Source: a virus
Virus record (IMG/VR): IMGVR_UViG_3300026484_000065
Coordinates: 1 to 64,000 of that record
Direction: 5' to 3' (one strand)
Length of the DNA: 64,000 bases
The stretch's first letter is position 1; every line of letters begins with the position of its first letter. Shown here piece by piece: positions 1-64,000 of this stretch. Made by a program: the position numbers and the translations under genes. The notes beneath the pieces are model-generated. The model did no database searches. It saw only the letters and a program-made list of their open reading frames with translations, and was not told the origin of the DNA.

Positions 1-3000
1 CGTTAGATGAAGAAACTATTAAATTGATAGAATCAGAGTCTAGCAATAAAGACAATAAGATGTTTTCAGAAGAACTTTACAAGAAGATTGTGCACAATTT
101 GCTTAATAAAGAAAATGACCTAACAAGAGAAAAGATAATAAACGAGGAAATGTTTAGTGATGGTCAACCAACTGGAACTGATGGTGATAGTAAATCAGAC
201 AACAAGACTGCAGAAGATGTGTATACTCAATTTTCATTGTATGATGAAGGCAGTACCAATCAACAAACAACTTTAAGCTCAAAGGATGAATCTTTAAAGT
301 TCTTTGACTCTCTCTTCAAGGGAGAGAGTCTATCTAGTATTTATGGTGATGTAAATCTTGGTACTCATTCATTGGATAAAATTATTCAAGATATGATCAA
401 TAGTGTTATTGCTAAATACGGAAAGATAAAAGTAGATGTTGGTGAAACAAGCAAGCAAGCTTTTGGGTACTCTAAAGGTGGTGGACATATAGGTATCTTT
501 AATTCAACAGCATCAACAATGATTCAGTCAACAAAAGAACTTATAGCTCACGAAATGATGCATGAGGGATTAAGAGAAGCCTTTAAAAAAGACAAGAAGC
601 TTCTACATGATGTTGCGAAACTAAAAGATGCTGTATACAAGGAACTTCTAAAAGATGAAAATAGAAAACATATATTTGCATCAGACAGTACCAAAACAAC
701 ACTAGAGGCAAGTGAAAGATTATATGAGTATTTATTTTCCGTAGATAGCAAAGCTGTTAACAAAACAGAAGAGTTTTTTATATATGCAATGACAAATCCA
801 AAACTAAATAGCTTTATTGTAAATTTAGATGGAAATGTTGATTCTCAATTGTTTGGAAAAATAGATACCTCTGAGGCAAAACTAAAAATAGTAAAACTTT
901 TCTATAAGGTCTTAAATAAAGTTATTGCTATGATAAACAGAATCTACAATAACTACAGACAAAGAAAGAATTACAAAGATGTTTTACTTGGTACATACAA
1001 CAAAGCTGTTGAGATTCAAACTGCAATACAAAACAATTCATATAATAAATCAAAATACGCTGATTTAATGACATACCTAAATAGCTCATCTTCTGGTTGG
1101 TTAAAAAAGATTATTTCAGTTGGGCACAATGATTTTAAAAACAGAGTATTAAATGGATTAGATGGGAATACTGCATTAGCTACAGCCTATGTGAAATACA
1201 AAGACAATAGGTCAGCGAGTCTTATCAAGTTTGTTATGGATTTGTACCACTCAACAGTTGACTCTGTAGAGCCTGAAAAATATAGAAAGTTCTATAAACT
1301 ATTTAATTACATCAAGCAAGTCAATGATGTTGAGAGAAATGCAGAAAAAGAAGCATTAAGAGTTGTTCTGAAGGATATGCTGAAGAGTTATAAAGAAGAT
1401 GAGTTTGGTACTCTAAAAGAATTACTAATTGATACGGATCTCAATGTGCTTCTTGATTCAATGAGCTATGACAAAGTTGTTGAGCTTGTGTCTAACAAGA
1501 ATAAGATAAACAATAGAATAGATATTCTTGAAGAGATTTTATACGATTCAGTTGAGTACCAAGAACATGATAAGTTCATTAATGCTGTGATTCAGCAGTC
1601 TAAGGGTCTTGCTAAATATATGATTCATAAAAAGATTTATTTAAAAAATCAAATGTTCAATCCAACATTGATTTCGATTGGTAAATTTATGACGAAAGAA
1701 GACTTTCAACAGCACCCTGAGCTAATTTCAGTACCAAACTTAGATACATCAGTTATAGATGAACTTGTTACATTGTATGCGCTGAAAGAAGTTGAATCGT
1801 GGAACAAAACAGAGTTGTTAACTAGAGACAAAGAAGCAATAGAAAATGTTTTGAAAGAACACGGAAGACAAGTTGAGCATCAATTAGAGATAGCATCAAA
1901 ATATGATGCCACATATTACGTTAAGGGAATCGAACATGCTGAATATGATATTGATTCAGATGTTGTTAGTACAAATGATGAGAAAAAGAAGAAGTGGTTA
2001 AGAAGAAGTGGATATAAAGAAATTTATTCAATAGAAGATGATTCTGTTTTTGCATATATTGGTACACATAAAAAAGCCTATACTAAAGGAATCATAGAAA
2101 TTGCTGATACAAAAACAGATATTGGTACTCATGCAGAAAGCAAACGTGAAGAAAGTGTTTATACTGATTTCTATACAAGGGAACTTCCAGATAAAGAAAC
2201 TTATGCATATAGACTTGACTCTCATAGCGTGAAAAGAGAGTTTAACTACAACAACCTAGAGAGAGTTATTTCAGTACCAAACTCAATAAGGGTCACATCA
2301 TTGAGAAAAAGCAATAATATTGTTGATGTACTTGTTGGAAATCTTTCAAATATGGAAGAGATTGAAGCTGGAGCAAAATACAATATGATGGCTATTGAAG
2401 AAGCAAATGAAGAATATAAAAGAGCAACTGATGTTGAAAAGAAAGCATTTTATAATATATCTCTAGGTTCAAAAGAATGGAAAAAGCTCCCAACTTACAC
2501 AAAGGATATGTTAAAGAAAAAAGGCATTGAAGATATTTATGTCAGAGCGAATATTCTTAATGACTTTATTGGGTACCAAAATATAAGAACAAGAGAGTTT
2601 ATAGAAAAGCTTAAAATTAAAAATCCAGCTGCATATAAAGGTGCATTGTTTCTAATGGATCATCTTGAAGACTTTATAAAAATATTGAAGCCAACACTTG
2701 TTATAAAAGATATTTTTGTTGTTGGTTCAAACTTCTTAAGTAACTTTTTTCATTTAGTTGCAAAAGGACTGAATCCTATTCAATCATCAAAAGATTTCTT
2801 TACAGCAGCAAGACTTTGGCAAGATTTAAAAAATGATTTAAGGGAGATAGCTAAATTAAAGGTTTTAAGAGGGTCAGACAATAGCAATAGATTAAACAGA
2901 CGTATTAATCATATCAAGGAAAGATTGCTTAATAACCCACTGTACGAGCTTCACAATAGAGGTTTGATATCATCAATGGTTGACGATGAGTCAGTGAGAG

Positions 3001-3554
3001 ATATGAAGGATAAAAACTTGGTACTTGATAAATTAAACAAGGTAGCATCAAGACTTGGAATACCAGAGGATTCAGCTATGAGAGATATTGTAAAAACAGT
3101 ATATGTTCATACAGATACAAAGTTTTTTAGATTCCTTCTTGATATGACTCAGTTAGGAGATGCTTCTGCAAGATATGCATATTATAATCATTTAAAAACA
3201 AATAGCAACATGAGTGAAGATGAGATTTATAGCAAAATAGCAAGTGAATTTGTAATGTACAACAAGAATGAAAATCCATTGATTCAGTTCTTTAACACCT
3301 TTGGGTTTGAAATGTTTACAAAATACTTATTTAAAAATATCGGGGTACAAGGAAGATTAATTCTCGAACATCCTGTTGGAGCTACACTTAGCTACATAGG
3401 TGTATCAGCTGGTCTTCCAACTCCAATGCAGACATTGTTAAGCATTGAGAATAGTGGTGTTGCTGATACTATTTCATATAGAAGTGTTGTTACTTCACCT
3501 ATAGACACTCTTGAAGCAGTTATAACACCTCCTCTAATAAGAGAGGTGCTTTAA
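1..3554 (+). CDS. Virion-encapsidated RNA polymerase (N4 gp50-like), C-terminal part; 5' end lies outside the window
   Basis: Frame open from position 3. AHEMMHEG (HExxH) motif and C-terminal blocks (LVIKDIFVVGSNFLSN, TQLGDASARYAYYNHL..SEFVMYN) resemble N4-type vRNAP C-termini. Last late gene, converging on the middle genes. Catalytic core not in window. Confidence 0.75.
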   Translation, partial: LDEETIKLIESESSNKDNKMFSEELYKKIVHNLLNKENDLTREKIINEEMFSDGQPTGTDGDSKSDNKTAEDVYTQFSLYDEGSTNQQTTLSSKDESLKFFDSLFKGESLSSIYGDVNLGTHSLDKIIQDMINSVIAKYGKIKVDVGETSKQAFGYSKGGGHIGIFNSTASTMIQSTKELIAHEMMHEGLREAFKKDKKLLHDVAKLKDAVYKELLKDENRKHIFASDSTKTTLEASERLYEYLFSVDSKAVNKTEEFFIYAMTNPKLNSFIVNLDGNVDSQLFGKIDTSEAKLKIVKLFYKVLNKVIAMINRIYNNYRQRKNYKDVLLGTYNKAVEIQTAIQNNSYNKSKYADLMTYLNSSSSGWLKKIISVGHNDFKNRVLNGLDGNTALATAYVKYKDNRSASLIKFVMDLYHSTVDSVEPEKYRKFYKLFNYIKQVNDVERNAEKEALRVVLKDMLKSYKEDEFGTLKELLIDTDLNVLLDSMSYDKVVELVSNKNKINNRIDILEEILYDSVEYQEHDKFINAVIQQSKGLAKYMIHKKIYLKNQMFNPTLISIGKFMTKEDFQQHPELISVPNLDTSVIDELVTLYALKEVESWNKTELLTRDKEAIENVLKEHGRQVEHQLEIASKYDATYYVKGIEHAEYDIDSDVVSTNDEKKKKWLRRSGYKEIYSIEDDSVFAYIGTHKKAYTKGIIEIADTKTDIGTHAESKREESVYTDFYTRELPDKETYAYRLDSHSVKREFNYNNLERVISVPNSIRVTSLRKSNNIVDVLVGNLSNMEEIEAGAKYNMMAIEEANEEYKRATDVEKKAFYNISLGSKEWKKLPTYTKDMLKKKGIEDIYVRANILNDFIGYQNIRTREFIEKLKIKNPAAYKGALFLMDHLEDFIKILKPTLVIKDIFVVGSNFLSNFFHLVAKGLNPIQSSKDFFTAARLWQDLKNDLREIAKLKVLRGSDNSNRLNRRINHIKERLLNNPLYELHNRGLISSMVDDESVRDMKDKNLVLDKLNKVASRLGIPEDSAMRDIVKTVYVHTDTKFFRFLLDMTQLGDASARYAYYNHLKTNSNMSEDEIYSKIASEFVMYNKNENPLIQFFNTFGFEMFTKYLFKNIGVQGRLILEHPVGATLSYIGVSAGLPTPMQTLLSIENSGVADTISYRSVVTSPIDTLEAVITPPLIREVL

Positions 3555-3706
3555 CTGTTAAATAATCTTTGCAAGGCTTCTTCTGAAGCTTTGTCTTGAT
3601 TGTCCTTGTACCAGCCAATACTTTTGATAGTACCAAACAAAACAATCATAATAATTAATATTAAAAAAACAACTAGTGATATGCCGAGTAATTCAAATAG
3701 AATCAT
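3551..3706 (-). CDS. Small membrane protein (51 aa, MILFELLGISLVVFLILIIMIVLFG...)
   Basis: Manually translated; one hydrophobic helix; ATGA overlap with the upstream small ORF. Confidence 0.55.
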   Translation of the reverse strand: MILFELLGISLVVFLILIIMIVLFGTIKSIGWYKDNQDKASEEALQRLFNS

Positions 3707-9133: not shown

Positions 9134-9358
9134 CTAATCAACACAATGAATAGAATCCAATAGATTCATAATATCATTCTTTAGCCTTCTTGTTGCAAAC
9201 ACTTCATCCTCAACAGATTCTCTATCGTTCTCATTCTCTAACGAATTTAGAAGACTACTAAAATTATGTTCATGATCCTGCAATGAATCAAACATAATTC
9301 TCAATTCCTCAATCTCTAAACTAACGTGTACTTTTGTTTCAATATTGTTAACTAACAT
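9134..9358 (-). CDS. Hypothetical protein (74 aa)
   Basis: ORF track; coupled to the helicase gene. Confidence 0.6.
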   Translation of the reverse strand: MLVNNIETKVHVSLEIEELRIMFDSLQDHEHNFSSLLNSLENENDRESVEDEVFATRRLKNDIMNLLDSIHCVD

Positions 9359-10794
9359 TTTTTATCCCTTATAAGTTTTATCATAAAGTTTAAATCAACT
9401 TCATGTTTTGCTCTTGTAGCAGCAACATATGCAAGCCTCATTGCTTCTGGATTATTTGAATTATCATAGAACCAACTAATAAGCTTGCTATCTAAAATTA
9501 CTTTATCAGCTGTTAAGCCTTTACTTGAATGAGCCGTAGATAGAACATATCTATGCTTTTCTTTTGTCTTGAAAGCCTCAGACGCAATATCTTTCAGTAT
9601 TACAAAATCTTCTATCTTTCTAGAGAAAGCTTGCTTTTTAAATATTGCATATTCTTCACTTTTTTCATATACCTCATCAAGATAATCATAACAACTTTTA
9701 TAATCCATTTTTAATAGTTGGGAGTTGTGGTACTCTTTAATATCTTCATTAAGATAAGACATGTCGCCAATAAGCTTGTTTGCTTTAGCACCAATTCCTC
9801 TAAAAGAGATATAGTCTTGAAATACAGCATCTAAATTTCTAGTGAGATTGAACTTTTTCCCTTCGCTTGTCATACTTAGAACATAATTTGCTAGCTCATT
9901 ATTTGTTCTTGTCAGTATTAATGTTGTATCTATAGAAGTATCTTCATGCTTAGTACCAACAAATACAAAGTCGTCATCAAAGAAGTCCTTGCCAAAATCT
10001 TGAACAACAGTAGCTATTGCTTCGTTGCATCTGTATGACTTAGTTAGCTTTAAATGTGTACCAACATCACTATAAAATTTAAACATTGATTCTGTATGCA
10101 TAAATCCAAATATCTCTTGGTTTTTATCTCCAACTACAATCTTCTGTTTTGCTTTTACATTTTCAAACAATATAGCTGTTGAACCAATAGCATCGTTAGC
10201 CTCATCAATAGCAAGAACATCTACTTCGTAATTAACTTGATTGCTTTGTACCAACAATGAAGCCCATTTAAGATATCCATTATGACTAAAGGCCTTGTTG
10301 TCTAGCATGAAGTACATAATCTTTTTTAATGCATTTGAGTAATTACTTTTATTAGCTAGATTTTCAAACGTATCAACAAAATCTTCAACTTTTTGTATAG
10401 ATGATGCACAATATCTATCTAGCAAATCAATAAGAATATCTGTGTCTGTTTTTTTGCTATACACTTTTGATAGATATATTATTTGCCTATTTGATTTAAT
10501 CTCAATAGTACCAACAAATGCTCTAACTATTTCATAAGCCAATGAGTGAATTGTTCTTGGATCAACATTTGATGGCATTGCTTCAATTGCTTCTTTTTGT
10601 TGCATCTTACTAAAGACAATATATTTAAATGTTCTGTTTGGATTATCATTTGCAATCATTTTTAATGTCGTTGATTTAGCTGAACCAGCAACAGAATCAA
10701 TAATAATTAACTCATCCCCACTTTTAAATGTATTTAAGATTGTTTGTTGTTCTTGTGATGGTACAAGTTTTATAGAATTTAACAGCTCATCCAT
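9352..10794 (-). CDS. SF1 UvrD/Rep-like DNA helicase
   Basis: AGSAKST Walker A, TIHSLA, IDEAND, VGDKNQEIFGF, LTKSYRC, STAHSSKGL, YVAATRAK. Confidence 0.9.
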   Translation of the reverse strand: MDELLNSIKLVPSQEQQTILNTFKSGDELIIIDSVAGSAKSTTLKMIANDNPNRTFKYIVFSKMQQKEAIEAMPSNVDPRTIHSLAYEIVRAFVGTIEIKSNRQIIYLSKVYSKKTDTDILIDLLDRYCASSIQKVEDFVDTFENLANKSNYSNALKKIMYFMLDNKAFSHNGYLKWASLLVQSNQVNYEVDVLAIDEANDAIGSTAILFENVKAKQKIVVGDKNQEIFGFMHTESMFKFYSDVGTHLKLTKSYRCNEAIATVVQDFGKDFFDDDFVFVGTKHEDTSIDTTLILTRTNNELANYVLSMTSEGKKFNLTRNLDAVFQDYISFRGIGAKANKLIGDMSYLNEDIKEYHNSQLLKMDYKSCYDYLDEVYEKSEEYAIFKKQAFSRKIEDFVILKDIASEAFKTKEKHRYVLSTAHSSKGLTADKVILDSKLISWFYDNSNNPEAMRLAYVAATRAKHEVDLNFMIKLIRDKKC

Positions 10795-11659: not shown

Positions 11660-11821
11660 CTACTTCTTTCTTTCGTGAGGTTTCGTTTTTGGTTCTTTAT
11701 CAGCAACTAGATGAGCAATATACGCAGCCATCGACATTCCAGCTTCATGAGCCAGAATCTTAATTTTCTTATGAATATGTTCACGTACCAACATTGTTTT
11801 TAATTTTGCTTTCTTTTCCAT
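11660..11821 (-). CDS. Ribbon-helix-helix DNA-binding protein (53 aa)
   Basis: Manually translated MEKKAKLKTMLVREHIHKKIKILAHEAGMSMAAYIAHLV; GGAG RBS. Confidence 0.65.
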   Translation of the reverse strand: MEKKAKLKTMLVREHIHKKIKILAHEAGMSMAAYIAHLVADKEPKTKPHERKK

Positions 11822-13186: not shown

Positions 13187-13257
13187 TCTCCCTTAATTAG
13201 TACCAAACATAAAAGTTGTTTAATTATTATTGTAGTGTTTGGTACTAATTAAGAGAG
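13187..13257. repeat. Inverted repeat built from two copies of the TGTTTGGTACT motif
   Basis: CTTAATTAGTACCAAACA ... TGTTTGGTACTAATTAAG between E1 and E2. Confidence 0.75.
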
Positions 13258-13284
13258 ATAAAAAGTTTTTCAAATCTAAAGTCA

Positions 13285-14018: not shown

Positions 14019-14747
14019 CTATGCTAAACCAAACTTCTTAGCAAGTTCTTTATCTTTAGCAAACAAAACATCTTTATCTTCCCAATCAATCTTATTACCA
14101 TTTAATCTATCAAAGATGAGAGATAAGTCATTGTTTGGTACTTTGTGAGGAAATAGCCCAAGAGGACTTCTTGCATTTGTATTTCTATTCTCTTGCCCTG
14201 GCTTTGTAACGAATCCGTACCCAACATAACTGCCAAATGGATTTGGTTCTGCTAAATCATATGTATATGTCTCTAATACAGTACCAAAGAAAGATTCTAA
14301 TCCAAGCTTAGAAAGTGAACCTTTAACCATTCCTTTTTTCTTTCCACCTGTTTCATCATTTGTATGGATAAAGAAGATCCAATTCTTTTTACTTTTCAAT
14401 CTTGCAAAATTCAATAGTTCTTTTCCCCATTGAGCATACAGCCCCCATGCAGCTCTAGTATCATCAGCTGTTAATACATGCATGCTCTCTAGCTGCTCAA
14501 ACCAAAAGCTAAGGCTATCGATTACAATTGTTTGGTACTCACTCTCTTCAAACGCTTGTAGTGACTGAATCACCTGAATGGGGTCCATCGGAATTATAAA
14601 TTTCCCAAATTCATCTTGCATATTAAAATCCATCTCATTCTTCCCATCCGTAGAAATATAAATGATTGATTTTAAATCCATATTTCTTAAACTCGCACTC
14701 TTCCCTGTTGAAGGCAAACCAGATACCATAATACAGTTCTTATTCAT
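14019..14747 (-). CDS. AAA_24/Sak4-like ATPase (N4 gp44-like)
   Basis: GLPSTGKS Walker A, IVIDSLS Walker B, RSPLGLF; start corrected to MNKNCIM (ATGA overlap). Confidence 0.8.
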   Translation of the reverse strand: MNKNCIMVSGLPSTGKSASLRNMDLKSIIYISTDGKNEMDFNMQDEFGKFIIPMDPIQVIQSLQAFEESEYQTIVIDSLSFWFEQLESMHVLTADDTRAAWGLYAQWGKELLNFARLKSKKNWIFFIHTNDETGGKKKGMVKGSLSKLGLESFFGTVLETYTYDLAEPNPFGSYVGYGFVTKPGQENRNTNARSPLGLFPHKVPNNDLSLIFDRLNGNKIDWEDKDVLFAKDKELAKKFGLA

Positions 14748-14860
14748 CTTTTTCTTCCTTTTACTAATTCTCTGTTTGTTTTGGTACATATTTTACATAT
14801 ACCATTTTCATTAACATCCTTTGTTGATGTACATATTTTGCAATTAACTTCTTTGTCCAT
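14744..14860 (-). CDS. Small zinc-finger protein (38 aa, CKIC..CKIC)
   Basis: Manually translated MDKEVNCKICTSTKDVNENGICKICTK; GGAGG RBS. Confidence 0.55.
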   Translation of the reverse strand: MDKEVNCKICTSTKDVNENGICKICTKTNRELVKGRKR

Positions 14861-17061
14861 TAGTTCCTCCTAGCTATTGAAGTTACTTCTTTATCGCTCA
14901 ACGGCTCAGAAAGTAGGTTATTTAGCTCAAACAGTACCAACTCAACATTATGTACTCCTATCTCCTCAAGAAGCTTCTTCGCAGAATATAGGTTACTATT
15001 TCTTGAACCTGTTGCTGTATTAACAACAAACCATTTCTTGATTCCTGCAACACGTCTTTCTACCTCATCTTCATAATCAACTCCAGAATCCATTAGTTTG
15101 TTAAGGATCTCTAATGCATGATTACCTTGTTCTGTTTCAGGTATAAACGCTTGAGCATTTAATTTTGTACCAACATTAGTAAATACCTCAGCTTCTGGAT
15201 TCGTGAACCAAAGTCTTGATATGTTGGTTGTAGCTTGGTCATATACCTTGAACCCAAAGAATTCAGCTATATTCTTATACATCTTCTTATGTTGTTCAGG
15301 ATCTACATAATACTTATTTGTTGTTGGTACTAAAATACGAAATCTATCACCTTGCATTTCACCATTTTTTTCTTTTCTATGAGACCTTGTTGTGTAGATG
15401 ATGTATGTATAGTCTTTTAAAAGCTCTCTAGCTTCTTTAAGGGTCATTCCATCATCTATATCGAATCCAATTAGATTTTGTCCCTTAATAGCATTATCTG
15501 CCCTTCTATGACCTGCTCCCTGAGTAGTTGCAAGTTTCTCAGACATAGCTGTTGGTTCATACCATGATGTAGTAAAGCTTTTTGCTTTATTGGAACGTAC
15601 CAAAGCTTCTATAGATGGAGCTTCTCCAAAGAAATTAACTTCCAATGGAAGAAAAGATGCAGATGCTTGAGGCTCTATCTTCTTTTGCTCATAATCATGA
15701 ACATCGATTGAACAAATAATCTTATCCATCTCTGTTTTAGATGGTTCTTCCATATAGAAATATCTTGTATTCTTTCCTGTAACATTAGGAACATAGCCTT
15801 TGTAATAAGCATAGTCTTTAAATAGCTCTATTGTCTCTTCACGTATTTGTTTGGTACTCCCCAGGTTAACACCATAAGAATCAAGCTCGTGTATAGACAA
15901 TTTTCTCTTAGCCAATTTCAGAACATTGAATAAATCTTTATGAATACTTATTGGATTGATTATATTTGAGATAGTCTCTCTTGACTCTTTAAAGATTGAA
16001 TATGCAGATTCTAAATGCTCTAAAGTTAATGTCATTGAGCTATCAAGAATGCATAATAAGTGAGCTATATTATCAATCATGTCAATTGAAGACACATCTA
16101 TTGTTAACCACTTATCAGCAAGATTGTCATTTGCCTTGTCTATTAGTTCGTCTTGTATTGAAACAAGTCTTTCTTTATAATCTTGTTGGTGCCCAAACTC
16201 TAAAGCTTCTTTGTAGTTCTTTGTGTTTGATTTGATAATAGCTTTTATTGAATCTATATAGCTAAATAGCTCATTAAGTTCTTCTTCTTGCATCTCAACA
16301 TTTTCACTGCTTTGACGTTCAATAGGTTTTGGCTCAAAGTTGAAGATTACAGATCTTCTGTATAGACCAGATTCAAGAAGCTTGAGTAATTGTTCTTTAT
16401 CTTTCTTTGATACACCAGCTTCAGAACCAAACAATAGTATATTTGTTGTAAGATTATCTACTTGAGGAGTGTTCTCAGATTTTGTTACTTTAGCTTTAAT
16501 GGTACCATCATATGCTTCTTTCAGCTTATTCAAAGCTTCTGCTGAATTTGTAACAATATCACCAAGTTCACTAACAGAAACATTGATGCTTGAAAATTGA
16601 GCAGCAGCAACTGCATATGATGTAGCAACAAAACCCTCTTTTGTACCCTCAATAGATACAGTTATATCTCTTGGAATATAATTCAACAAGGCATCTAAAC
16701 CTTTCTTTTCTCCAAGAACAAAACTATTCTCAACTTCATGTTTTAATCTTTCATCACCTTCAACATTCGCAATCAATTCTTGTTTCATAGCTTCATGATA
16801 TACAGTTCTGTTAAAGTTAAACACATCAGCAACAGTACCAAAACTAAAGTCCTTACCAAATCCACTTCCAGCAAGAGTTACACCAAAAAACTTTATATTC
16901 TTACCATTACTATTAAGTACCAAACCTGATGTTAAGTTTGCCAATATTGATGTATAAAACAATAATGGGTTTAGATAGATGTACCTATCTGATTTAAATT
17001 TACCTTGTATCTCAAGCTTATCAAGTATGTATTTTAAAGATTCTGTTTCTTTAATTTTCAT
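14860..17061 (-). CDS. N4 gp43-like helicase-domain/AEP primase(-polymerase)
   Basis: N-terminal AGSGFGKD P-loop; C-terminal AEP motifs FDIDDG, YTTRSH, RFRIL; PriCT-like GSRNSNLY..PLSDKEV. Confidence 0.85.
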   Translation of the reverse strand: MKIKETESLKYILDKLEIQGKFKSDRYIYLNPLLFYTSILANLTSGLVLNSNGKNIKFFGVTLAGSGFGKDFSFGTVADVFNFNRTVYHEAMKQELIANVEGDERLKHEVENSFVLGEKKGLDALLNYIPRDITVSIEGTKEGFVATSYAVAAAQFSSINVSVSELGDIVTNSAEALNKLKEAYDGTIKAKVTKSENTPQVDNLTTNILLFGSEAGVSKKDKEQLLKLLESGLYRRSVIFNFEPKPIERQSSENVEMQEEELNELFSYIDSIKAIIKSNTKNYKEALEFGHQQDYKERLVSIQDELIDKANDNLADKWLTIDVSSIDMIDNIAHLLCILDSSMTLTLEHLESAYSIFKESRETISNIINPISIHKDLFNVLKLAKRKLSIHELDSYGVNLGSTKQIREETIELFKDYAYYKGYVPNVTGKNTRYFYMEEPSKTEMDKIICSIDVHDYEQKKIEPQASASFLPLEVNFFGEAPSIEALVRSNKAKSFTTSWYEPTAMSEKLATTQGAGHRRADNAIKGQNLIGFDIDDGMTLKEARELLKDYTYIIYTTRSHRKEKNGEMQGDRFRILVPTTNKYYVDPEQHKKMYKNIAEFFGFKVYDQATTNISRLWFTNPEAEVFTNVGTKLNAQAFIPETEQGNHALEILNKLMDSGVDYEDEVERRVAGIKKWFVVNTATGSRNSNLYSAKKLLEEIGVHNVELVLFELNNLLSEPLSDKEVTSIARRN

Positions 17062-17960: not shown

Positions 17961-19772
17961 TTAAAATGGAATATCTTCATCTTCTATGTCATCGTTGTCA
18001 CTATTGTCTATAACACCCATATATCTTTTTTGTTCTTCAAGTTCATCAAGATATCTTTCTTCCAAGAACTCCAAAAAGAATGCCCATCCAAACATATTCT
18101 TGCCTTCCTTGATGATATTTGTGCCTCTTGTTTTTAAAGCCTTGAACCATCTTCTGTGTTGTCCATGGTACTTATCCCAAATAGGCATCATTTTCTTAAA
18201 GAAGAAATTTGATGAAGGTTTATATTCATATCCATCTTTGTTCTTAGGCAATCCATTGATATACACATGAATATCTATAAAAGCTTCAACAAGCACTTCT
18301 ATATTTACTGTAGTTTTGTATACCTTAATAATATCAGCTATACGTTCTTGAGGATTCTTGATTCGTACAATAGTATCATCTGTTTTTCTTTTTACAGTAC
18401 CAACATGAACTTGTTCAACTTCTTCTTTCTTTTTGTATAACTCTTTCTCAAGCTCTTCAAGTCTAGCTATGCGTTCATTGTACCAATCTCTACTTATCTC
18501 TTGTACCACAACATCTTTATCAATAAGTTCATCAAGATTGAGTAATGCTAATCTATCAACCTCTTTGGCAAGGTTTATTATGTTTTGTTCTCTATCTTCT
18601 GTTTTTGGTACTGGATTAAAGTCATCATAATAAAATCCAAATCTTGCAAAATTAGAACCACAATCAAGAAATCTCTTAGTTTCGACCTTATCTGTTCTAC
18701 GGAGATTTCTTCCCAAAATCTGTAGTTCTTTTGGTCTTGACCCTATTGATGTTGCAATAACTAAATCTTCAATCTCTGTGTCTGAGAAACCTGTTGATAA
18801 TGCATTTACATTGACCAAGCATTTTACAGTGAATACATTATTTTCAAATTCAGGTAGTGCTTGCTGTGCTGAATTTGGATCAATATACTTTTCTTGATTG
18901 ATAAATGATTTTAAAATTGCATCACGTTGTTTGTTTGGTACTTTTGAATGATATACCATAGAACTAAAACCATTTGCTTGAAGTACCTCATTCAGTACCT
19001 CTGCTGTATGAATTGATGATGTAAACAATAATACTTTTCTGTCTTGCATATTCATATGCTTCATCGTATTAACAACATTGTTTATATATGTATCTTTTTC
19101 AATTATATTATTTAACTGGTATTTGTCAAAGTCTCCTGATGAAGTCACTTTGATATTATCAAAATCTAATTTTTCAGCGAATGAAGCTACATATGTTTCA
19201 ATGTTTGGATGCCAAACTGATTTAGCCATTTCTGCATTAGTCATTGTTTGAATTGTTTTGTAAACATTGTCTAATTGATAGCCAAATGCATTGTAGGGAG
19301 TACCTGTCATACCTATTCTAATGCTATATCCGAATTGCTTCTTAAGTTTATTGATAGTACCACCACTTGAGAACTTATGTATTTCATCTTGAATTATGAT
19401 TGTTGGTACAAAATTCAAAGTACCCTTTTCAAGTCTTGATACAACAGATTGGAACATTCCTATTTGAATATTGCAATTTTCACATTGGTTATCATACCCA
19501 GAAGCAATAACGCCTACTTCAAGGTTTATCAGTTTTGCTGTGTCAACAAATTGTTCTATCAAAGCTCTGATTGGAAATACGATAAGCACTGTTTCAAACT
19601 CAGATAGCTTCTTTGCTATTTCAAGAATTGCTATGCTTTTCCCCCAGCTCACCTGAGCATCAAGGACAATAGTGTCTCTCTTTTCCCCTTCAAGGTCTTG
19701 GGCAAACATTAAATCGTTGACTGCTTCAAGTACTTTGTCGACAGCTTCTTGTTGATATGGACGTAACTTCAT
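17961..19772 (-). CDS. SF2 DExH helicase (RadD/UvsW-like) with SSB-like DDIPF tail
   Basis: LRPYQ Q-motif, SWGKS, DEIH, TGTP, LSTGFS, QILGRNLR; C-terminus DDIEDEDIPF. Confidence 0.88.
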   Translation of the reverse strand: MKLRPYQQEAVDKVLEAVNDLMFAQDLEGEKRDTIVLDAQVSWGKSIAILEIAKKLSEFETVLIVFPIRALIEQFVDTAKLINLEVGVIASGYDNQCENCNIQIGMFQSVVSRLEKGTLNFVPTIIIQDEIHKFSSGGTINKLKKQFGYSIRIGMTGTPYNAFGYQLDNVYKTIQTMTNAEMAKSVWHPNIETYVASFAEKLDFDNIKVTSSGDFDKYQLNNIIEKDTYINNVVNTMKHMNMQDRKVLLFTSSIHTAEVLNEVLQANGFSSMVYHSKVPNKQRDAILKSFINQEKYIDPNSAQQALPEFENNVFTVKCLVNVNALSTGFSDTEIEDLVIATSIGSRPKELQILGRNLRRTDKVETKRFLDCGSNFARFGFYYDDFNPVPKTEDREQNIINLAKEVDRLALLNLDELIDKDVVVQEISRDWYNERIARLEELEKELYKKKEEVEQVHVGTVKRKTDDTIVRIKNPQERIADIIKVYKTTVNIEVLVEAFIDIHVYINGLPKNKDGYEYKPSSNFFFKKMMPIWDKYHGQHRRWFKALKTRGTNIIKEGKNMFGWAFFLEFLEERYLDELEEQKRYMGVIDNSDNDDIEDEDIPF

Positions 19773-19815: not shown

Positions 19816-20556
19816 CTACATCAATAAGTTTTTAGTTGCAAAGTGATTGTTGGTACTATTTCTCTTTTTCCAGTACCCACACTTATCTCTCCAACCACAA
19901 TAATATGCACATCTGTTTGGTTGCTTTTCTTTGTTTTTACCAAACTTCCAGATATCGCATTCTAATACTTCATCAGGATGCTCTATTAAATATTCAATCT
20001 CATTTGTTTTATCAATAATCATATCTTCAACCAAATCGAAATCATATGTTTCAATATCTACAAATGTATATATATTCTTTAATACAGCAGAACCACCTTT
20101 GTTTAAAGCAAGTAGTTTGATTTGGTACTCTTCTCCAAGTTCTTTAAAAAGGAGATATCTATAGATATTTAATTGTGTTTCATAAGTACCAACATCACCA
20201 GATGCTACTTTTTTATAGCCTCCAGCAGACAATAACTTATAGTCATAGATAATCTTATCTTCGTGGTCAATTAAATCAACTGTGCCCGTTATTGTCCAAT
20301 TATTTACTTTGTGGCTGAGTGGTTTTTCTACCTCAAAACCATCCTTGCTTTTAAATATTTCCTCAAAGCCTTTATGAATAACAGAACCTAAAGTATTGTT
20401 ACCAAATTCATCATCATCTGATGGGTCTCCATTCTTCCATCTCAATAAGAGCTGTTGATTTTCAAGGCCAAAAGATGATGCAGATAAAGACTTTGTGTGT
20501 TTTGGTACTCCATTATATTTAGTACCCTCTATAACTGCTTTGATTATTCGTTCCAT
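19816..20556 (-). CDS. PD-(D/E)xK Cas4-like exonuclease
   Basis: GSVIHKGFE, ITGTVDLID..IYDYK, QLNIY, C-terminal CAYYCGWRDKC. Confidence 0.85.
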   Translation of the reverse strand: MERIIKAVIEGTKYNGVPKHTKSLSASSFGLENQQLLLRWKNGDPSDDDEFGNNTLGSVIHKGFEEIFKSKDGFEVEKPLSHKVNNWTITGTVDLIDHEDKIIYDYKLLSAGGYKKVASGDVGTYETQLNIYRYLLFKELGEEYQIKLLALNKGGSAVLKNIYTFVDIETYDFDLVEDMIIDKTNEIEYLIEHPDEVLECDIWKFGKNKEKQPNRCAYYCGWRDKCGYWKKRNSTNNHFATKNLLM

Positions 20557-36198: not shown

Positions 36199-36403
36199 AA
36201 TCTACTCCTTTGGATTGTTTGTTTGGTACTTAATTAGAATAACCCATATCTTCTCTACAAGAGAACTTTGTACCAATACAATAAAAACATATGTATAGAG
36301 ATATATCTTTGCTGTTTTGATACTTAAGAATTAATTTAATAAGGTATAGATAATCTAGTACCAAACAATACAGATAGGTTAGTTTTGTTTGGTACTAGAT
36401 TAA

Positions 36404-39356: not shown

Positions 39357-39416
39357 ACCTATGCCTTTGTTTGTATTTTATTTGGTACTGCAATTATAAG
39401 ATAAAAAAAAATAAGA

Positions 39417-43910: not shown

Positions 43911-44627
43911 ATGGGGTTAAAGATGCCACAGAAAGAAAGAAGCTATAGCAAAAGAGCTTTTGTCAAGAATATGCCTTATAAGAGTGGTACTCGCAAGAAG
44001 AAGAATGTATCACAGAAGGCATATGATAAAGTTATGGAGATGTTGCAAGATGGAGATATGGACTTCAGAAATGACTTTATGACATTTAGCAAAGTATTCT
44101 CTGAGAAGAAGATATCTCTTCAACATTATGCAGAGGCTGTTAAGTTTGTTGGGTACAGATTGTTAGGGTACAAGAATGTAGAAGCATTTAGAAGGGTTTT
44201 TCCAGAAAGAGCTGAAGCATTAGAAGAGGTTAGTTTCGAGAACTTATCTTTCGTTGCAACAAGATATGGGAACAATAAGACAGTTACTGAACTAATGTCA
44301 ATGGCTATGGTGCCAACATGGATAGCAAATATGGATTATTATCAAGAGGCTATTAATGTTAATGTTATGCTTATGCGTAATGCTAAGAGTGAGATGGTTA
44401 AACATCAAGCAGCTAAGACACTAATGGAAGAATTAAGACCTCCTGAACCTGTTAAGGAGATACAGGAAGATACAATCACAATAACAAAAGAGGATACACT
44501 TCAAGCCTTAGAAAATGCAATATTTAATCTTGCAGAAAAACAAGTTCAAGGTATAGAGGATGGGATTATTTCAACAGCTGATGCAATAGATGTTCAATTG
44601 GTTGGTACTAAAAATGAAGAAGATTAG
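43911..44627 (+). CDS. N4 gp69-like protein (putative terminase small subunit)
   Basis: YAEAVKFVGYRLLG, QEAINV..LMRNAKSEMVKHQAA; directly upstream of TerL. Confidence 0.7.
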   Translation: MGLKMPQKERSYSKRAFVKNMPYKSGTRKKKNVSQKAYDKVMEMLQDGDMDFRNDFMTFSKVFSEKKISLQHYAEAVKFVGYRLLGYKNVEAFRRVFPERAEALEEVSFENLSFVATRYGNNKTVTELMSMAMVPTWIANMDYYQEAINVNVMLMRNAKSEMVKHQAAKTLMEELRPPEPVKEIQEDTITITKEDTLQALENAIFNLAEKQVQGIEDGIISTADAIDVQLVGTKNEED

Positions 44628-52821: not shown

Positions 52822-53436
52822 ATGATGCTAGATAGAATTAAATTAGCTTTAGAACAAAATAAAGAAAAAGGTGCAAAGGTTCTCATTAGAGAATACTTTG
52901 CCAACCAGCATAAAGATAAATGGCTAGAAGATAAACGTAAAAACTATGAAGAGCTTAAATTAGATATTACATTTGATGAATGGTTAAACGAAGAAGTTGT
53001 GGTACAAGAAGCTACGGAAGATGAGCCAGAGATTACTGAATTAGTCAGAGAATATATGCTGCCGACCGATGAAGAATTTGAAGAATATTTAAATAACTCT
53101 TATTTATGGAAAGAGTACCAAACAAAGAAAGCTAAAGAAGCAAAAGCTAATTTACTAGCTACTATGAAAGTAGAGTTAGACAACTTAGAACTACAAGCTG
53201 ATAGTACTTCATTAGTATATATGAATAGTGTTGGTACTATTGCAAGTAAATATTTTAACAAATTGCTTGCTAGCGGAGCAAATGCAGAAGATGCTTATAG
53301 AACTATTTATATAGAGACAACTATCGACTGGAAAGATGCAAATAACACAGTCAATCCAGTTAGCGTAGAAACTATTATTGATGGACTAGAATTAGCTGTT
53401 AGAAAGGTAGGCGAAATTGTTAAACAAAATTCTTAG
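52822..53436 (+). CDS. Tail fibre assembly protein (DUF4376-like)
   Basis: LQADSTS...TIDWKDANN. Confidence 0.65.
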   Translation: MMLDRIKLALEQNKEKGAKVLIREYFANQHKDKWLEDKRKNYEELKLDITFDEWLNEEVVVQEATEDEPEITELVREYMLPTDEEFEEYLNNSYLWKEYQTKKAKEAKANLLATMKVELDNLELQADSTSLVYMNSVGTIASKYFNKLLASGANAEDAYRTIYIETTIDWKDANNTVNPVSVETIIDGLELAVRKVGEIVKQNS

Positions 53437-53701
53437 ATACCCAGAAAAAATCCCATCGGATAAAAGACTTCACGCCTTAATCGGCGTTGTCTTGTCATCT
53501 ATATTGCTAAGCCTCAATATTAATCTGTATATTTTTATTGCAGTTTTATTTATTGTAGCTTGGGGAATTGAGTATTACCAACTCGCTACAAAGAGTGGAA
53601 ACTTTGACCACTATGATGCAATAGCAGTGGTTGTTGGAGGATTGTTGGTGCTAGCTCCATATCTATTGAAGGGCTATAATGAAGTTAATTTTTTATGGTA
53701 A
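53417..53701 (+). CDS. VanZ-like small membrane protein
   Basis: DKRLHA...WGIEYYQ...FDHYDAIA; three TM segments. Confidence 0.6.
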   Translation: MLNKILRYPEKIPSDKRLHALIGVVLSSILLSLNINLYIFIAVLFIVAWGIEYYQLATKSGNFDHYDAIAVVVGGLLVLAPYLLKGYNEVNFLW

Positions 53702-54209
53702 TCAAAAAGGGAACTGGATAGATAAACTAATTAGATGGTGGACTTCTCCACTATCTTGGAAGCTTAACGGTGATTGGAAGTATGCTCCTAGTCACGTAGA
53801 GATACTTTTCAGCGATGGGTTAATGTTTTCTGCTAGTGGAAGAGAAAATAAAGCAAGATTTAAAAAGCATAATCCAAAAGGTAAAGCTTGGATAAGAGTT
53901 CCTAGCGAAACAGACAGAGCTAGTGAAGCAATTGTAAGATTGTTTTGTACTAGTTTGGCTGGAAGAAGTTACGATTATGCTGGTGTATCTGGCTTTGCAT
54001 TGCCGATTAAGCAAGATAAACGAAAATGGTTTTGTAGTGAAATAACTACAAGAGCATTACAGCAACTAGATATTAGTGAACTAAAGTGCTTGGTACCACA
54101 CAAAACAAGCCCGTTAGATTTATTATTGGCTACTGGAGCCGAATTTGATAGTAAATTTAAAGAGTGGAAAATCAAGCCATTAAAGGTTTTAAATGAACTT
54201 GGAAGTTAG
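53679..54209 (+). CDS. Permuted papain-like NlpC/P60 (YiiX-type) protein
   Basis: SHVEI, YDYAG, WFCSE. Confidence 0.8.
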   Translation: MKLIFYGNQKGNWIDKLIRWWTSPLSWKLNGDWKYAPSHVEILFSDGLMFSASGRENKARFKKHNPKGKAWIRVPSETDRASEAIVRLFCTSLAGRSYDYAGVSGFALPIKQDKRKWFCSEITTRALQQLDISELKCLVPHKTSPLDLLLATGAEFDSKFKEWKIKPLKVLNELGS

Positions 54210-54591
54210 TACATTAATAGAGATAGTTGGGGTTATATTTGCTATATACGGTAGCTTTGTTGTATCTAAATTTAAAGTGTCGGCACTTGAGGAAAGAATG
54301 GAAAAAATGAACGCCCAAATAGATATTGCAAACGACTTTATGACGAGTAATGTTAGAAGACTTGAGCATTATGACAAAATAGAAGATGCTATGTTTAGAA
54401 AATTAGATAGGTACGGCACGGATATAACAACGTTAAAAGAAGCTGTAAATCAGAGTGTAACAATAAAAGACGTAAGTGACCAATTTACACATATATCTGA
54501 ATATTTAGCACAAAAAGAGTGTATGAACTCAGATATAAAGAAGTTGGAACATAGAATTCATAGACTAGAAGAAAGAATATATCATAGCTAG
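54193..54591 (+). CDS. Membrane-anchored coiled-coil protein (lysis accessory?)
   Basis: N-terminal TM then coiled coil; upstream of the lysis gene. Confidence 0.55.
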   Translation: MNLEVSTLIEIVGVIFAIYGSFVVSKFKVSALEERMEKMNAQIDIANDFMTSNVRRLEHYDKIEDAMFRKLDRYGTDITTLKEAVNQSVTIKDVSDQFTHISEYLAQKECMNSDIKKLEHRIHRLEERIYHS

Positions 54592-60269: not shown

Positions 60270-60282
60270 GCAGGGTTCTACA

Positions 60283-61314: not shown

Positions 61315-61400
61315 TTTCTAGTACCATCTACGGATGGTACAATGAAGCTAAGCTTTTAGTTAAGTTTCAAAAAATAAAATAAAATTTGGAGGTAGTCACA

Positions 61401-62621: not shown

Positions 62622-62635
62622 CATCTCAGAGTAAC

Positions 62636-62670
62636 TTAGTGCCTATTCATTCTCCTGTGGTAGGCACTAA
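62636..62670 (+). terminator. Stem-loop after MCP
   Basis: TTAGTGCCTA...TAGGCACTAA. Confidence 0.5.
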
Positions 62671-62724
62671 TGAAAAAGTTTTATGATATAATCTGCAAAT
62701 CATAAAACAACAGGAGATCCAAAT

Positions 62725-63156: not shown

Positions 63157-63161
63157 GAGCA

Positions 63162-63659
63162 ATGAGCTTTCCAGAAGATGAAAACTTTGATTCATTATTC
63201 AATAAAGGGCTAAACAAATCAAGTCCTATTGGATTCACTGGAACAAATGGATCAGAATACACACAATTGGCAAATATAGATAATTACAATACAGAGGAAT
63301 TAAGAAACCTTGTTGAAGACTATAGAAAACAAGGAATTAGTACCACAATTATAGGCAATAAGCTATATAATAAAAAAGAATTAGGTTTCCTTGATAAATA
63401 CGGACAAGGGATCAAGCTAGGCCTAGGAGCAGCAAATCTTGGATTCAATGTATTCCAAACAGGTGTTAACACAGCTCTTAAGAAAAGAGAGCTATCTGCA
63501 ATAGAAGACGCCAATGCTCAAGGTTGGGAAAATGTAGATCTTAAAAAACAAGAGCTAAATAGACTTCATGAAGTTATTGCAAGAAACGATGCAAAGATTT
63601 CAGGAAAACCTCAACGTAAAGTTAAAAAATATAAACTTCATTCAGAAAAAACAAACTAA
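63162..63659 (+). CDS. Internal virion/ejection protein (putative)
   Basis: GIKLGLGAANLGFN amphipathic segment; late module. Confidence 0.5.
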   Translation: MSFPEDENFDSLFNKGLNKSSPIGFTGTNGSEYTQLANIDNYNTEELRNLVEDYRKQGISTTIIGNKLYNKKELGFLDKYGQGIKLGLGAANLGFNVFQTGVNTALKKRELSAIEDANAQGWENVDLKKQELNRLHEVIARNDAKISGKPQRKVKKYKLHSEKTN

Positions 63660-63698
63660 GATATAATAACACTCATATTAAACACAAAGGAAACAAAT

Positions 63699-64000
63699 AT
63701 GAGTGTTATATCATACAAAGACCTCAAACCCTCAGCAAATGTAAATTCAGCAGTAGCAAATATAATCAATGCATTACCAGACAAGAAAGAATCAAATATT
63801 GATTCCATTAATGCAAAATATATGGCAGAACAAGAAAGGCTTATCTCCAAGAAAGCTTCACTTGAGAATAATTTGAAATTAGATGGTACCAAAGAAGAGA
63901 TTATTAAAAGTGATGGTACCTTTAGTGAAAAAAGAGACAAACTAAACAAACTGTATACATCTTATATTTCAGCTCAAGCAGCAGCAGGAAACACCTCTGA
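63699..64000 (+). CDS. Virion protein, truncated by the window end
   Basis: AAGGA RBS; MSVISYKDLKPSANVNSAVANII... open to the end. Confidence 0.65.
   Translation, partial: MSVISYKDLKPSANVNSAVANIINALPDKKESNIDSINAKYMAEQERLISKKASLENNLKLDGTKEEIIKSDGTFSEKRDKLNKLYTSYISAQAAAGNTS

What the first reader, a model, noticed from the sequence alone, without database searches (positions are those of the whole stretch)
1..64000. Genome-wide saturation with a TTGGTAC/GTACCAA signal (extended consensus TGTTTGGTACT)
Seen: the heptamer occurs in both orientations, inside genes (V-G-T, F-G-T, V-P-N/K codons) and in intergenic gaps. My manual tally gave about 30 copies in the first 10 kb. About 1 is expected from base composition at roughly 31% GC. 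Full-length copies form inverted pairs at 13187-13257, 36358-36398 and within hairpin E4. Known: phages usually avoid 4-bp palindromes such as GTAC, and dispersed motifs (DUS, HIP1, Chi, RAATTY in C. jejuni) mark protein-DNA systems. Inference: a dispersed self-recognition code, for example sites for a phage DNA-coating or protecting protein, a packaging/ejection signal, or a modification target separating phage from host DNA. No methyltransferase is visible in the window.
Basis: partly seen in the sequence, partly recalled or inferred. Interest (0 to 1): 0.85.

Follow-up and report, generated by a model that had tools for sequence, protein, structure and literature searches.

The report
Switched dispersed DNA word in N4-like phage
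This uncultured relative of coliphage N4 writes the short DNA word TTGGTACT about every 400 bases on both strands, a local dialect of a word (TGGTTC) that N4 and its relatives share, and the phage's own primer-making enzyme is the most likely reader, though no experiment shows this.

Summary
TTGGTAC occurs 152 times in the window, against 5.3 in dinucleotide shuffles. It occurs 177 times in the 73.5-kb record, against 62 under a synonymous-codon shuffle. It lies on both strands, in all reading frames and between genes. It fills 42-71% of the coding positions that could carry it, against 4-17% for control words.

It is not specific to this phage or host. N4 itself carries TGGTTC 220 times (100 expected after synonymous shuffle). 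Close relatives carry TGGTTC, TGGATC, TGGCTC or mixtures. The family word is therefore TGG-NN-C, at about 3-4 copies per kb, and its middle letters changed in this lineage. A 50-kb E. coli sample is not enriched.

Same-strand copies avoid each other, while the two strands are independent. This suggests the word is read one strand at a time.

My best guess (0.4) is a start signal for the conserved gp43-type AEP primase. Evidence against it: there is no lagging-strand skew, and one relative has the primase but lacks the word.

This scan had already reported the N4-family TGGTTC word on three other genomes. What is new here is the switched word.

The parts
1..64000 (.). Dispersed word T-T-G-G-T-A-C-(T/A): 152 copies of TTGGTAC in the window (83 +, 69 -) and 205 copies of the hexamer core TGGTAC
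   Evidence: counts and logo; codon-preserving shuffles; frames; share of synonymous opportunities used
14860..17061 (-). gp43-type replication protein (733 aa). It has an N-terminal P-loop NTPase part and a C-terminal archaeo-eukaryotic primase (AEP/PrimPol) domain. It is my proposed reader of the word.
   Evidence: phrog_2135 'DNA primase' E 1.6e-56. It aligns with the annotated DNA primases of N4, LUZ7, DSS3phi2, Vibrio phi 1 and Presley, with invariant G67/G69/K70, D534, D536, H561 and D608. AF2 model of aa 469-733 has pLDDT 82. The best structural match is the cyanophage S-2L PrimPol AEP domain 6zp9 (Foldseek E 1.8e-4; Z 7.9, rmsd 3.5 over 126 residues).
17961..19772 (-). SF2 (ResIII/SNF2-like) helicase of the replication module
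   Evidence: Pfam ResIII 4.5e-17, Helicase_C 2e-7; phrog_16
19816..20556 (-). PD-(D/E)xK / Cas4-like exonuclease. With the helicase it is a candidate reader under the rival 'phage Chi-like' explanation.
   Evidence: phrog_1706 1e-10, phrog_2139 4.4e-8
14019..14789 (-). Sak4-like AAA_24 protein (counterpart of N4 gp44)
   Evidence: Pfam AAA_24 2e-8; tblastn 32% identity to N4 at gp44
13187..13258 (.). Long inverted repeat. The 23-bp arms each contain the word (TTAATTAGTACCAAACA...).
   Evidence: -19.4 kcal/mol, z = -7.63, 0 of 200 shuffles fold as well
36351..36402 (.). Long inverted repeat. The 18-bp arms each contain the word.
   Evidence: -16.6 kcal/mol, z = -7.67, 0 of 200 shuffles fold as well

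Best explanation
The word is this lineage's version of a dispersed signal, TGG-NN-C, that is common to N4-like phages. I propose that it is read on single-stranded DNA, one strand at a time, as the preferred start site of the phage's own gp43-type AEP primase. On this model the template 5'-TTGGTAC(T)-3' would direct a primer beginning 5'-GUACCAA. Selection keeps about one site per 600-800 bases on each strand, so that lagging-strand synthesis can start wherever a fork runs.

Shown: the enrichment, its independence of coding, its occurrence across the family, its near-constant density, the turnover of site positions, the same-strand spacing, and the presence of a conserved AEP primase.

Inferred: In this phage the two middle letters changed from the family's usual TT to TA. 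Its nearest primase relatives still use TT.
For: 1. The word is selected at the DNA level. It fills 101 of 170 sense and 101 of 243 antisense positions where synonymous codons allow TGGTAC. For TTGGTAC the figures are 67 of 94, and for GTACCAA 83 of 147. Ten control words fill 4-17%. TTGGTAC is about twice as dense between genes: 27 of 177 copies lie in the 8.4% of the record that is non-coding.

- N4: TGGTTC 220 copies against 98-100 after synonymous shuffle.
- G002: TTGGATC 157 and TTGGTTC 67, each against 4.6 expected.
- G003: TTGGTTCT 85 against 1.3.
- G004: TTGGTTCT 96 and TTGGTACT 53, each against 2.4.
- L071: TGGCTC at 35.7x.
- Vibrio phi 1: TTGGTTC 95 against 5.9.
- TGGTTC is the best TGG-NN-C variant in 29 of 47 primase-bearing IMG/VR loci of at least 15 kb.
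- A 50-kb E. coli sample has TGGTTC at 0.82x.

3. The density of the core is similar in five genomes (3.1-4.3 per kb), but the sites in orthologous capsid, portal and terminase genes are mostly at different positions. This indicates that number, not place, is selected.

4. Reading appears to be strand-wise. The per-strand spacing CV is 0.74-0.90 in 8 of 10 strand sets (p < 0.05 in 6 of 10), while the pooled strands give a CV of 0.89-1.03. Same-strand pairs within 70 bp number 47 against 83.0 expected, summed over five genomes. Opposite-strand pairs number 99 against 82.0.

5. Among the proteins shared with N4, the primase is the one whose known relatives need frequent short template words. Its AEP fold and catalytic residues are supported.

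6. Control: the phage T7 primase word TGGTC (recalled from the literature) sits in T7's most enriched 5-mer and 6-mer (GGTCA 157 against 75; TGGTCA 55 against 19).

7. Three earlier reports of this scan reached the same reading on other N4-like genomes. These are not independent evidence.
Against: No experiment links gp43 to any sequence.

The word is equally common on both strands and shows no replichore-like skew. In the change-point test, 18 of 100 permutations reach the observed value for this phage, 63 for G002, 95 for N4 and 93 for G003. Only G004 is low, at 2 of 100. A simple origin-to-terminus lagging-strand model is therefore not met.

G001 encodes a phrog_2135 primase (E 7e-95) yet has no TGG-NN-C word. 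Its strongest word after synonymous shuffle is a weak TTAGAT (189 against 117).

Primases known to me read 3-5 bases, not 7-8.

Strand-wise spacing would fit any single-strand reader, for example a helicase-nuclease.

Co-variation of primase sequence with word could not be separated from shared descent.
Confidence: 0.4

Rival explanations
1. A phage-specific Chi-like 'self' mark. A phage-encoded helicase-nuclease (here the SF2 helicase 17961-19772 with the Cas4/RecB-like exonuclease 19816-20556, or the RecD-like SF1 helicase 9352-10794) tracks along one strand from DNA ends. The word switches it from degradation to recombination or protection. Word-rich phage DNA would then be spared and word-poor DNA would not.
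For: This needs a dispersed, frequent word that is read strand-wise on both strands and whose number rather than position matters. All of that is seen. Helicase and PD-(D/E)xK exonuclease genes sit next to each other, and an exonuclease is annotated beside the primase in N4, LUZ7, DSS3phi2 and phi 1.
Against: I know of no phage-encoded nuclease with its own Chi (from my own knowledge). The word is not the host's Chi, since it is nearly the same in phages of E. coli, Vibrio and Roseobacter hosts. There is no end-directed polarity of orientation. By tblastn, the SF2 helicase and the exonuclease of this phage have no N4 counterpart.
Confidence: 0.15
2. A binding site for a sequence-specific double-strand DNA-binding protein of the phage, for genome organisation, coating or protection, or transcription control. 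This is essentially the first reader's proposal.
For: Intergenic copies carry a longer consensus (tgtTTGGTACTaatta-like) and are about twice as dense as coding copies. In the sense orientation, GTACCAAA lies 0-34 nt upstream of the start codons of several early and middle genes. Two long inverted repeats carry the word in both arms.
Against: Same-strand copies repel each other while opposite-strand copies do not. A double-strand reader of an asymmetric site would not produce that pattern unless orientation mattered. By tblastn, the ParB-like genes and ORF 17538 have no counterpart in N4, and the ORFs at 11660 (RHH) and 13565 have none in any of the five genomes compared. 150 of the 177 copies are inside genes, in both orientations. 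G001 shares the virion module but not the word.
Confidence: 0.15
3. A target of a DNA modification or restriction-like system, where the word marks phage DNA chemically.
For: The words of this phage and of G002 contain the 4-bp palindromes GTAC and GATC. GTAC outside the word is scarce (64 against 155 expected). Other palindromes are strongly avoided (CCGG 1 against 52, CGCG 3 against 52).
Against: No match to Pfam N6_N4_Mtase, DNA_methylase or MethyltransfD12 in the whole record. The commonest family word, TGGTTC, is not palindromic. An enzyme's target does not need to be enriched 20-40 fold.
Confidence: 0.05
4. No function: a by-product of codon or dipeptide usage or of mutation bias.
For: Part of the raw excess is codon-driven. 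The synonymous shuffle still gives 62 copies against 8.2 from composition. AGCT-type 'words' in relatives vanish under the same shuffle.
Against: The count of 177 against 62.1 +/- 4.5 survives the shuffle. All frames, both orientations and intergenic DNA carry the word. 42-71% of synonymous opportunities are used, against 4-17% for controls. Different lineages enrich different single words at the same density.
Confidence: 0.03

Closest known systems
Phage T7 gene 4 primase recognition sites (5'-GTC-3' core; extended GGGTC, TGGTC, GTGTC; recalled from the literature)
   Same: A short asymmetric word read on single-stranded template and needed on both strands. The letters are similar (TGGTC against TGG-NN-C). 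T7's own most enriched 5-mer and 6-mer contain TGGTC.
   Different: The T7 primase is a DnaG/TOPRIM enzyme with a zinc finger, whereas gp43 here has an AEP fold and I saw no zinc ribbon in the sequence. The T7 excess is only 2-3 fold, against 10-45 fold for a 6-8 base word here. No biochemistry exists for gp43.
Family-wide TGGTTC/GAACCA word of N4-like phages, as reported earlier in this scan (e1-5796612, e1-5796621, e1-6090678). My literature searches found no paper on it.
   Same: The architecture, density, strand balance and frame independence are the same, as is the proposed reader. I confirmed N4's own word here.
   Different: This phage has replaced TGGTTC (left at 2.0x) with TGGTAC and extended it to TTGGTACT. 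Its clade also shows TGGATC and TGGCTC and lacks a family A DNA polymerase.
Sequence-specific AEP primases: pRN1 ORF904 (GTG) and RSF1010 RepB' at ssiA/ssiB (recalled). RepB' is a structural match here (3h25, Z 5.8).
   Same: An AEP-fold enzyme that starts only at a defined template sequence.
   Different: Those act at one or a few origin sites, or at a 3-base word, not at about 200 dispersed 7-8 base words.
Chi sites (E. coli GCTGGTGG; recalled) and their enrichment in some phages
   Same: A dispersed, over-represented, strand-read octamer whose number matters more than its place.
   Different: Chi is defined by the host's RecBCD/AddAB and differs between hosts. This word is shared by phages of unrelated hosts, and N4's form of it is not enriched in a 50-kb E. 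coli sample. It has no polarity.
DNA uptake sequences (Neisseria DUS, Haemophilus USS; recalled)
   Same: A genome-saturating short word in both orientations, inside genes and between them.
   Different: Those belong to competent bacteria and their chromosomes. This one belongs to a lytic phage family. N4's host sample lacks it.

Membership tests
N4-like phages (Schitoviridae) | Giant virion-packaged RNA polymerase gene | tested here: met
   phrog_2206 'virion RNA polymerase' E 1.8e-68 for window 3-3554. The frame continues from record 65434 to the record end.
N4-like phages (Schitoviridae) | N4-type structural and packaging genes | tested here: met
   TerL is 44-49% identical to N4-like phages, with 479 of 488 matching records covering at least 80% of the query. 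Relatives of the capsid protein are named 'N4-gp56 family major capsid protein' by their source. The portal is 27% identical to N4.
N4-like phages (Schitoviridae) | N4-type replication genes (gp43 primase, gp44 Sak4-like, family A polymerase gp39) | tested here: inconclusive
   The primase and the Sak4-like protein are present. Pfam DNA_pol_A and DNA_pol_B find nothing in the record, which CheckV rates 95% complete.
N4-like phages (Schitoviridae) | Heterodimeric RNAPII genes | tested here: inconclusive
   None was recognised by the PHROGs or Pfam scans of 40 different ORFs. The genome search with PF00940 rang in no control genome, so it is uninformative.
N4-family dispersed TGG-NN-C word | One TGG-NN-C hexamer strongly over-represented and surviving a synonymous shuffle | tested here: met
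   TGGTAC 237 against 24.4 from composition and against 113.7 after synonymous shuffle, z = 23.5.
N4-family dispersed TGG-NN-C word | Both strands, all frames and intergenic DNA, at about 3-4 copies per kb | tested here: met
   126 + and 111 -; 3.2 per kb, against 3.1-4.3 per kb in G002, G003, G004 and N4; frames.
N4-family dispersed TGG-NN-C word | The word itself is TGGTTC | tested here: not met
   TGGTTC is only 2.0x here, while TGGTAC is 9.7x. The nearest primase relatives, L061 and L068, use TGGTTC. This is a dialect of the family word, not the canonical word.
Primase recognition sites | The genome encodes a primase | tested here: met
   AEP fold and conserved D-x-D, H and D residues.
Primase recognition sites | Primers start at the word | not testable with these tools
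   This needs primer-synthesis assays or mapping of nascent-strand 5' ends.
Primase recognition sites | Excess on the lagging-strand template relative to an origin | tested here: not met
   No significant orientation change-point (18 of 100 permutations reach the observed value). This is compatible only with forks running both ways.
Primase recognition sites | Per-strand spacing suited to Okazaki-size fragments | tested here: met
   One TGGTAC per 583 bases (+ strand) and 662 bases (- strand). The + strand CV is 0.74 (p < 0.001) and the - strand CV is 1.0. Close same-strand pairs are depleted in all five genomes.
Chi-like sites | Word defined by the host's helicase-nuclease and enriched in the host chromosome | tested here: not met
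   Similar words occur in phages of unrelated hosts. A 50-kb E. coli sample has TGGTTC at 0.82x. The host of this phage is unknown.
Modification / restriction-modification target | Cognate DNA methyltransferase or modifying enzyme encoded | tested here: not met
   0 matches for PF01555, PF00145 and PF02086 in the record. Other modification chemistries were not tested.

The most novel reading that the evidence does not exclude
N4-like phages use a genome-wide 'start code' read by their gp43-type AEP primase. In a polymerase-less, low-GC clade that includes this phage, the code has lengthened to 8-9 bases. Its two middle letters have switched several times (TT to TA, AT, CT), sometimes through two-word intermediates such as G004 (TT+TA) and G002 (AT+TT). 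This would be a natural series of specificity swaps in which an enzyme and some 200 sites per genome co-evolve. A bolder extension is that fixed-sequence primers left in the DNA help to spread the word.
Probability: 0.33. Interest if true: 0.75.

Novelty: new variant of a known kind. Interest (0 to 1): 0.6.

Why it matters
If the primase reading is right, N4 is a 60-year-old model phage whose replication priming is uncharacterised, and it and its large family would carry a readable map of lagging-strand start sites. It would also be the first long-word, genome-saturating specificity reported for an AEP primase.

The dialects found here (TAC, ATC and CTC against TTC) give ready-made swap experiments: which protein must be exchanged for a phage to accept another word?

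In practice, the word is a strong sequence signature for recognising and sub-typing N4-like contigs in metagenomes. It also explains why such phages tolerate hundreds of GTAC or GATC sites.

If the primase reading is wrong, the family still carries a strongly selected signal with no known reader.

Tried and rejected
Host-shared signal. The host is unknown. The only strong holder of the DNA is a coded run labelled hydrothermal vent metagenome, which may be the source itself. No tRNA genes were found in the window. I therefore tested only N4's host.

Close relatives for a site-conservation test. There is no nucleotide match in the phage collection. The best TerL identity is 49%. The single-protein MCP scan of viral contigs found nothing. 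An alignment-based scan found relatives at 54-67% MCP identity.

Laying contigs of runs X1 and X2 gave only 200-270-base pieces of relatives in X2 and strain variants in X1. That was too little to compare substitution rates inside and outside the word. No RNA holder was listed.

Replichore-like orientation switch: not significant.

Promoter reading. The N4 RNAPII minimal promoter is AT-rich, spanning -7 to +2 (PMC4496689, section 2.2 read). LUZ7 middle promoters are GC-rich hairpins (PMC9163698, passages). Neither resembles the word.

Sequence search of the primase against PDB chains: only chance-level matches (E >= 0.5). Pfam found nothing for it.

Gene-content contrast using the word-less relative G001. 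It has the primase and a family A polymerase, so it did not single out a reader. G001 is rated only 35% complete.

Literature. I made six full-text searches. I saw only listings, plus passages of PMC7145618 (its TGGTTC hit is a PCR primer), PMC4889955, PMC4496689 and PMC9163698. None describes the word. Supplementary files were not consulted and may hold k-mer tables I could not see.

Full report
WHAT THE WINDOW IS

The window is 64 kb of a single 73,470-bp viral record with 32.7% G+C. It is an N4-like phage:
- A virion RNA polymerase fragment lies at 3-3554 (phrog_2206, E 1.8e-68).
- TerL lies at 44590-46182.
- A gp43-type 'DNA primase' lies at 14860-17061 (phrog_2135, E 1.6e-56).
- TerL is 44-49% identical to many N4-like phages.
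- The capsid protein's relatives are named N4-gp56 family by their source.

No close relative exists in the phage collection. The only strong holder among public runs is a coded run labelled hydrothermal vent metagenome, which may be the source itself. The host is unknown.

TTGGTAC occurs 152 times in the window (83 +, 69 -), and 32 of these lie in the first 10 kb. Dinucleotide shuffles give 5.26 +/- 2.18, and 0 of 100 reach 152.

In the whole record there are 177 copies against 8.2 expected from composition. The octamer TTGGTACT occurs 128 times against 2.8. The logo built on 313 GGTAC sites is T-T-G-G-T-A-C-(T/A), with little information beyond it.

Of 364 GTAC sites, 300 lie inside GGTAC/GTACC. 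GTAC outside the word is scarce, at 64 against 155 expected.

IT IS A DNA-LEVEL SIGNAL

Copies fall in all six frame/orientation classes and between genes: 66 sense, 84 antisense, and 27 intergenic or at gene edges, out of 177. Non-coding DNA is 8.4% of the record, so the word is about twice as dense there.

Shuffling synonymous codons within each gene leaves 62.1 +/- 4.5 copies (max 75 in 100 shuffles) against 177 observed. Permuting codons leaves 41.1 +/- 2.4.

The genome uses 101 of 170 (sense) and 101 of 243 (antisense) positions where the protein sequence would allow TGGTAC. For TTGGTAC the figure is 67 of 94, and for GTACCAA it is 83 of 147. Ten control words use 4-17%. 'Saturation' is a fair description.

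IT IS NOT PRIVATE TO THIS PHAGE

This is the main new context.

Fragments of other N4-like contigs showed their own top octamers of the form TTGG-NN-C.

N4 itself carries TGGTTC 220 times in 70 kb. That is 7x composition, and 100 +/- 7 or 98 are expected after synonymous shuffle. It lies on both strands (90/130) and in all frames.

Relatives with 54-67% capsid identity, four of which I fetched in full, show the following:
- G002: TTGGATC 157 and TTGGTTC 67, each against 4.6 expected.
- G003: TTGGTTCT 85 against 1.3.
- G004: TTGGTTCT 96 and TTGGTACT 53, each against 2.4.

Among 47 primase-bearing IMG/VR loci of at least 15 kb, TGGTTC is the best TGG-NN-C variant in 29. L071 uses TGGCTC (35.7x), and L069, L070 and L072 use CTC plus TTC. 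Vibrio phi 1 (TTGGTTC 95 against 5.9) and DSS3phi2 (TGGTTC 4.2x) carry the word. In LUZ7 the top variants are TGGTTT (5.2x) and TGGCTT (5.0x), and in Presley the signal is weak (TTGGTT 3.0x).

A 50-kb sample of E. coli K-12 has TGGTTC at 0.82x.

The core density is similar in five genomes (3.1-4.3 per kb). The positions in orthologous capsid, portal and terminase genes mostly differ between lineages. Number is conserved; place is not.

THE DIALECT

On a tree of the primase, a long-branched clade of 16 rows (support 100) holds all the strongly marked, low-GC phages. This phage (TA) groups with L061 and L068 (TT) at support 97. G002 (AT+TT) groups with TT users. G004 (TT+TA) sits elsewhere. TT is also the outgroups' word.

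The middle letters have therefore changed several times, while TGG and C stay fixed. In this phage TGGTTC is left at 2.0x.

The same clade has no family A polymerase near the primase: 0 of 11 loci, against 26 of 36 other loci. There is also none in the whole records G000, G002 and G004, and no family B polymerase in G000.

HOW IT IS READ

Sense and antisense copies are equal in number. An orientation change-point test is not significant for this phage (18 of 100 permutations), nor for G002, G003 or N4. G004 gives 2 of 100.

On each strand taken alone, the spacing is more even than random. The CV is 0.74-0.90 in 8 of 10 strand sets, with p < 0.05 in 6 of 10. The - strand here and the + strand of G004 are about 1.0. 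Pooled strands are close to Poisson, with a CV of 0.89-1.03.

Same-strand pairs within 70 bp are fewer than expected in all five genomes (47 against 83.0 in total). Opposite-strand pairs are not (99 against 82.0). This fits a reader that works on one strand at a time and for which a second nearby site on that strand is redundant.

WHO READS IT

Proteins of this phage with N4 counterparts are TerS, TerL, portal, capsid, vRNAP, the Sak4-like protein, the primase, the gp24-like ATPase, a gp25-like VWA/HNH protein, an SSB-like protein and an exonuclease.

G001 shares the capsid and portal module (64% and 52% identity) but has no TGG-NN-C word. This argues against a virion or packaging reader.

The gp43-type protein aligns across the family, with an invariant P-loop and invariant D534, D536, H561 and D608. 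A model of its C-terminal 265 residues (pLDDT 82) matches AEP primase-polymerases best:
- S-2L PrimPol: Foldseek E 1.8e-4; Z 7.9, rmsd 3.5 over 126 residues.
- Then RepB', Prim-PolC and the LigD polymerase domain.
Z is under 8, so the fold call rests on the run of AEP hits together with the conserved catalytic residues.

A primase is the kind of enzyme that needs a short template word on both strands every few hundred bases. T7's known primase word TGGTC (recalled from the literature) sits in T7's most enriched 5-mer and 6-mer, though at only 2-3x.

WHAT SPEAKS AGAINST THE PRIMASE

No lagging-strand skew was found. G001 carries a phrog_2135 primase (E 7e-95) without the word; its best word after shuffling is a weak TTAGAT/TTAGTT. 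The word is longer than any primase site I know of. Strand-wise spacing would also suit a phage helicase-nuclease reading a Chi-like mark.

I therefore give the primase reading 0.4. I give 0.15 each to a phage-specific Chi-like mark and to a double-strand binding protein, 0.05 to a modification target (no methyltransferase of three families), and 0.03 to no function.

INTERGENIC COPIES

These carry a longer consensus (tgtTTGGTACTaatta-like). In the sense orientation, GTACCAAA sits 0-34 nt upstream of several start codons of leftward genes. Two long inverted repeats have the word in both arms. These copies may have a second use, for example in promoters or terminators. I did not resolve this.

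EARLIER WORK IN THIS SCAN AND THE LITERATURE

After I had found the N4 word myself, a look-up showed three earlier follow-up reports on other N4-like genomes with the same family word and the same primase proposal. Another first-reader note on this same genome describes the heptamer TGGTACT. These are not independent evidence.

Six literature searches found no paper describing the word.

VERDICT

This is a new dialect of a family-wide signal whose reader is probably, but not demonstrably, the AEP primase.

Noticed in passing
whole record G000 (window 1-64000 plus 64001-73470); G002, G004; loci L061-L075: No family A or B DNA polymerase is detectable in this phage, whose record CheckV rates 95% complete. 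None is detectable in G002 (100% complete) or G004 either. 0 of 11 loci of this clade have a PolA within 10 kb of the primase, against 26 of 36 other N4-like loci. The clade may rely on the host polymerase or on the AEP primase-polymerase itself.
   Followed up: partly
window 1-3554 and record 65434-73470: Both ends of the record fall inside the virion RNA polymerase gene: an open frame of about 2680 aa runs off the 3' end, and an 1183-aa frame is open at the 5' end. The contig is therefore cut, or circularly permuted, within that gene. The two parts are in different frames if the ends are simply joined.
   Followed up: partly
whole record G000: Several 4-bp palindromes are strongly avoided: CCGG 1 against 52 expected, CGCG 3 against 52, GATC 0.32x, TCGA 0.37x. 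N4 has 1 GATC against 258 expected, G004 has 6 CTAG against 183, and G002 has 3 ACGT against 132.
   Followed up: no
window 17080, 36223, 39382, 41288, 41878, 42421, 7786: In the sense orientation of the leftward genes, GTACCAAA lies 0-34 nt upstream of the start codons. The copies at 39382 and 42421 share a longer identical stretch (ATTGCAGTACCAAATAAAA). These may be promoter or leader elements that reuse the word.
   Followed up: partly
G001 (IMG/VR record behind L031), whole 50.7 kb: This relative shares the capsid and portal genes (64% and 52% identity), a phrog_2135 primase and a PolA, but has no TGG-NN-C word. After synonymous shuffle its top words are TTAGAT (189 against 117) and TTAGTT. 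This may be a further diverged dialect, or nothing.
   Followed up: partly
L056 (phage T7): T7's most enriched 5-mer (GGTCA, 157 against 75) and one of its top 6-mers (TGGTCA, 55 against 19) contain its known primase site TGGTC.
   Followed up: no
window 53408-53762 and 54366-54504: Contigs of run X1 show a second, diverged variant of these stretches (51 differences in 355 bases, and a dense run of differences at higher depth). This suggests strain micro-diversity or a related phage in the same sample.
   Followed up: no
window 37398-39356: A 652-aa early-region protein has weak left-handed beta-helix/hexapeptide and bactofilin-like repeat hits only (Pfam E 3.6e-5 to 3.6e-3, all below the curated cut-offs). 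Its function is unknown.
   Followed up: no
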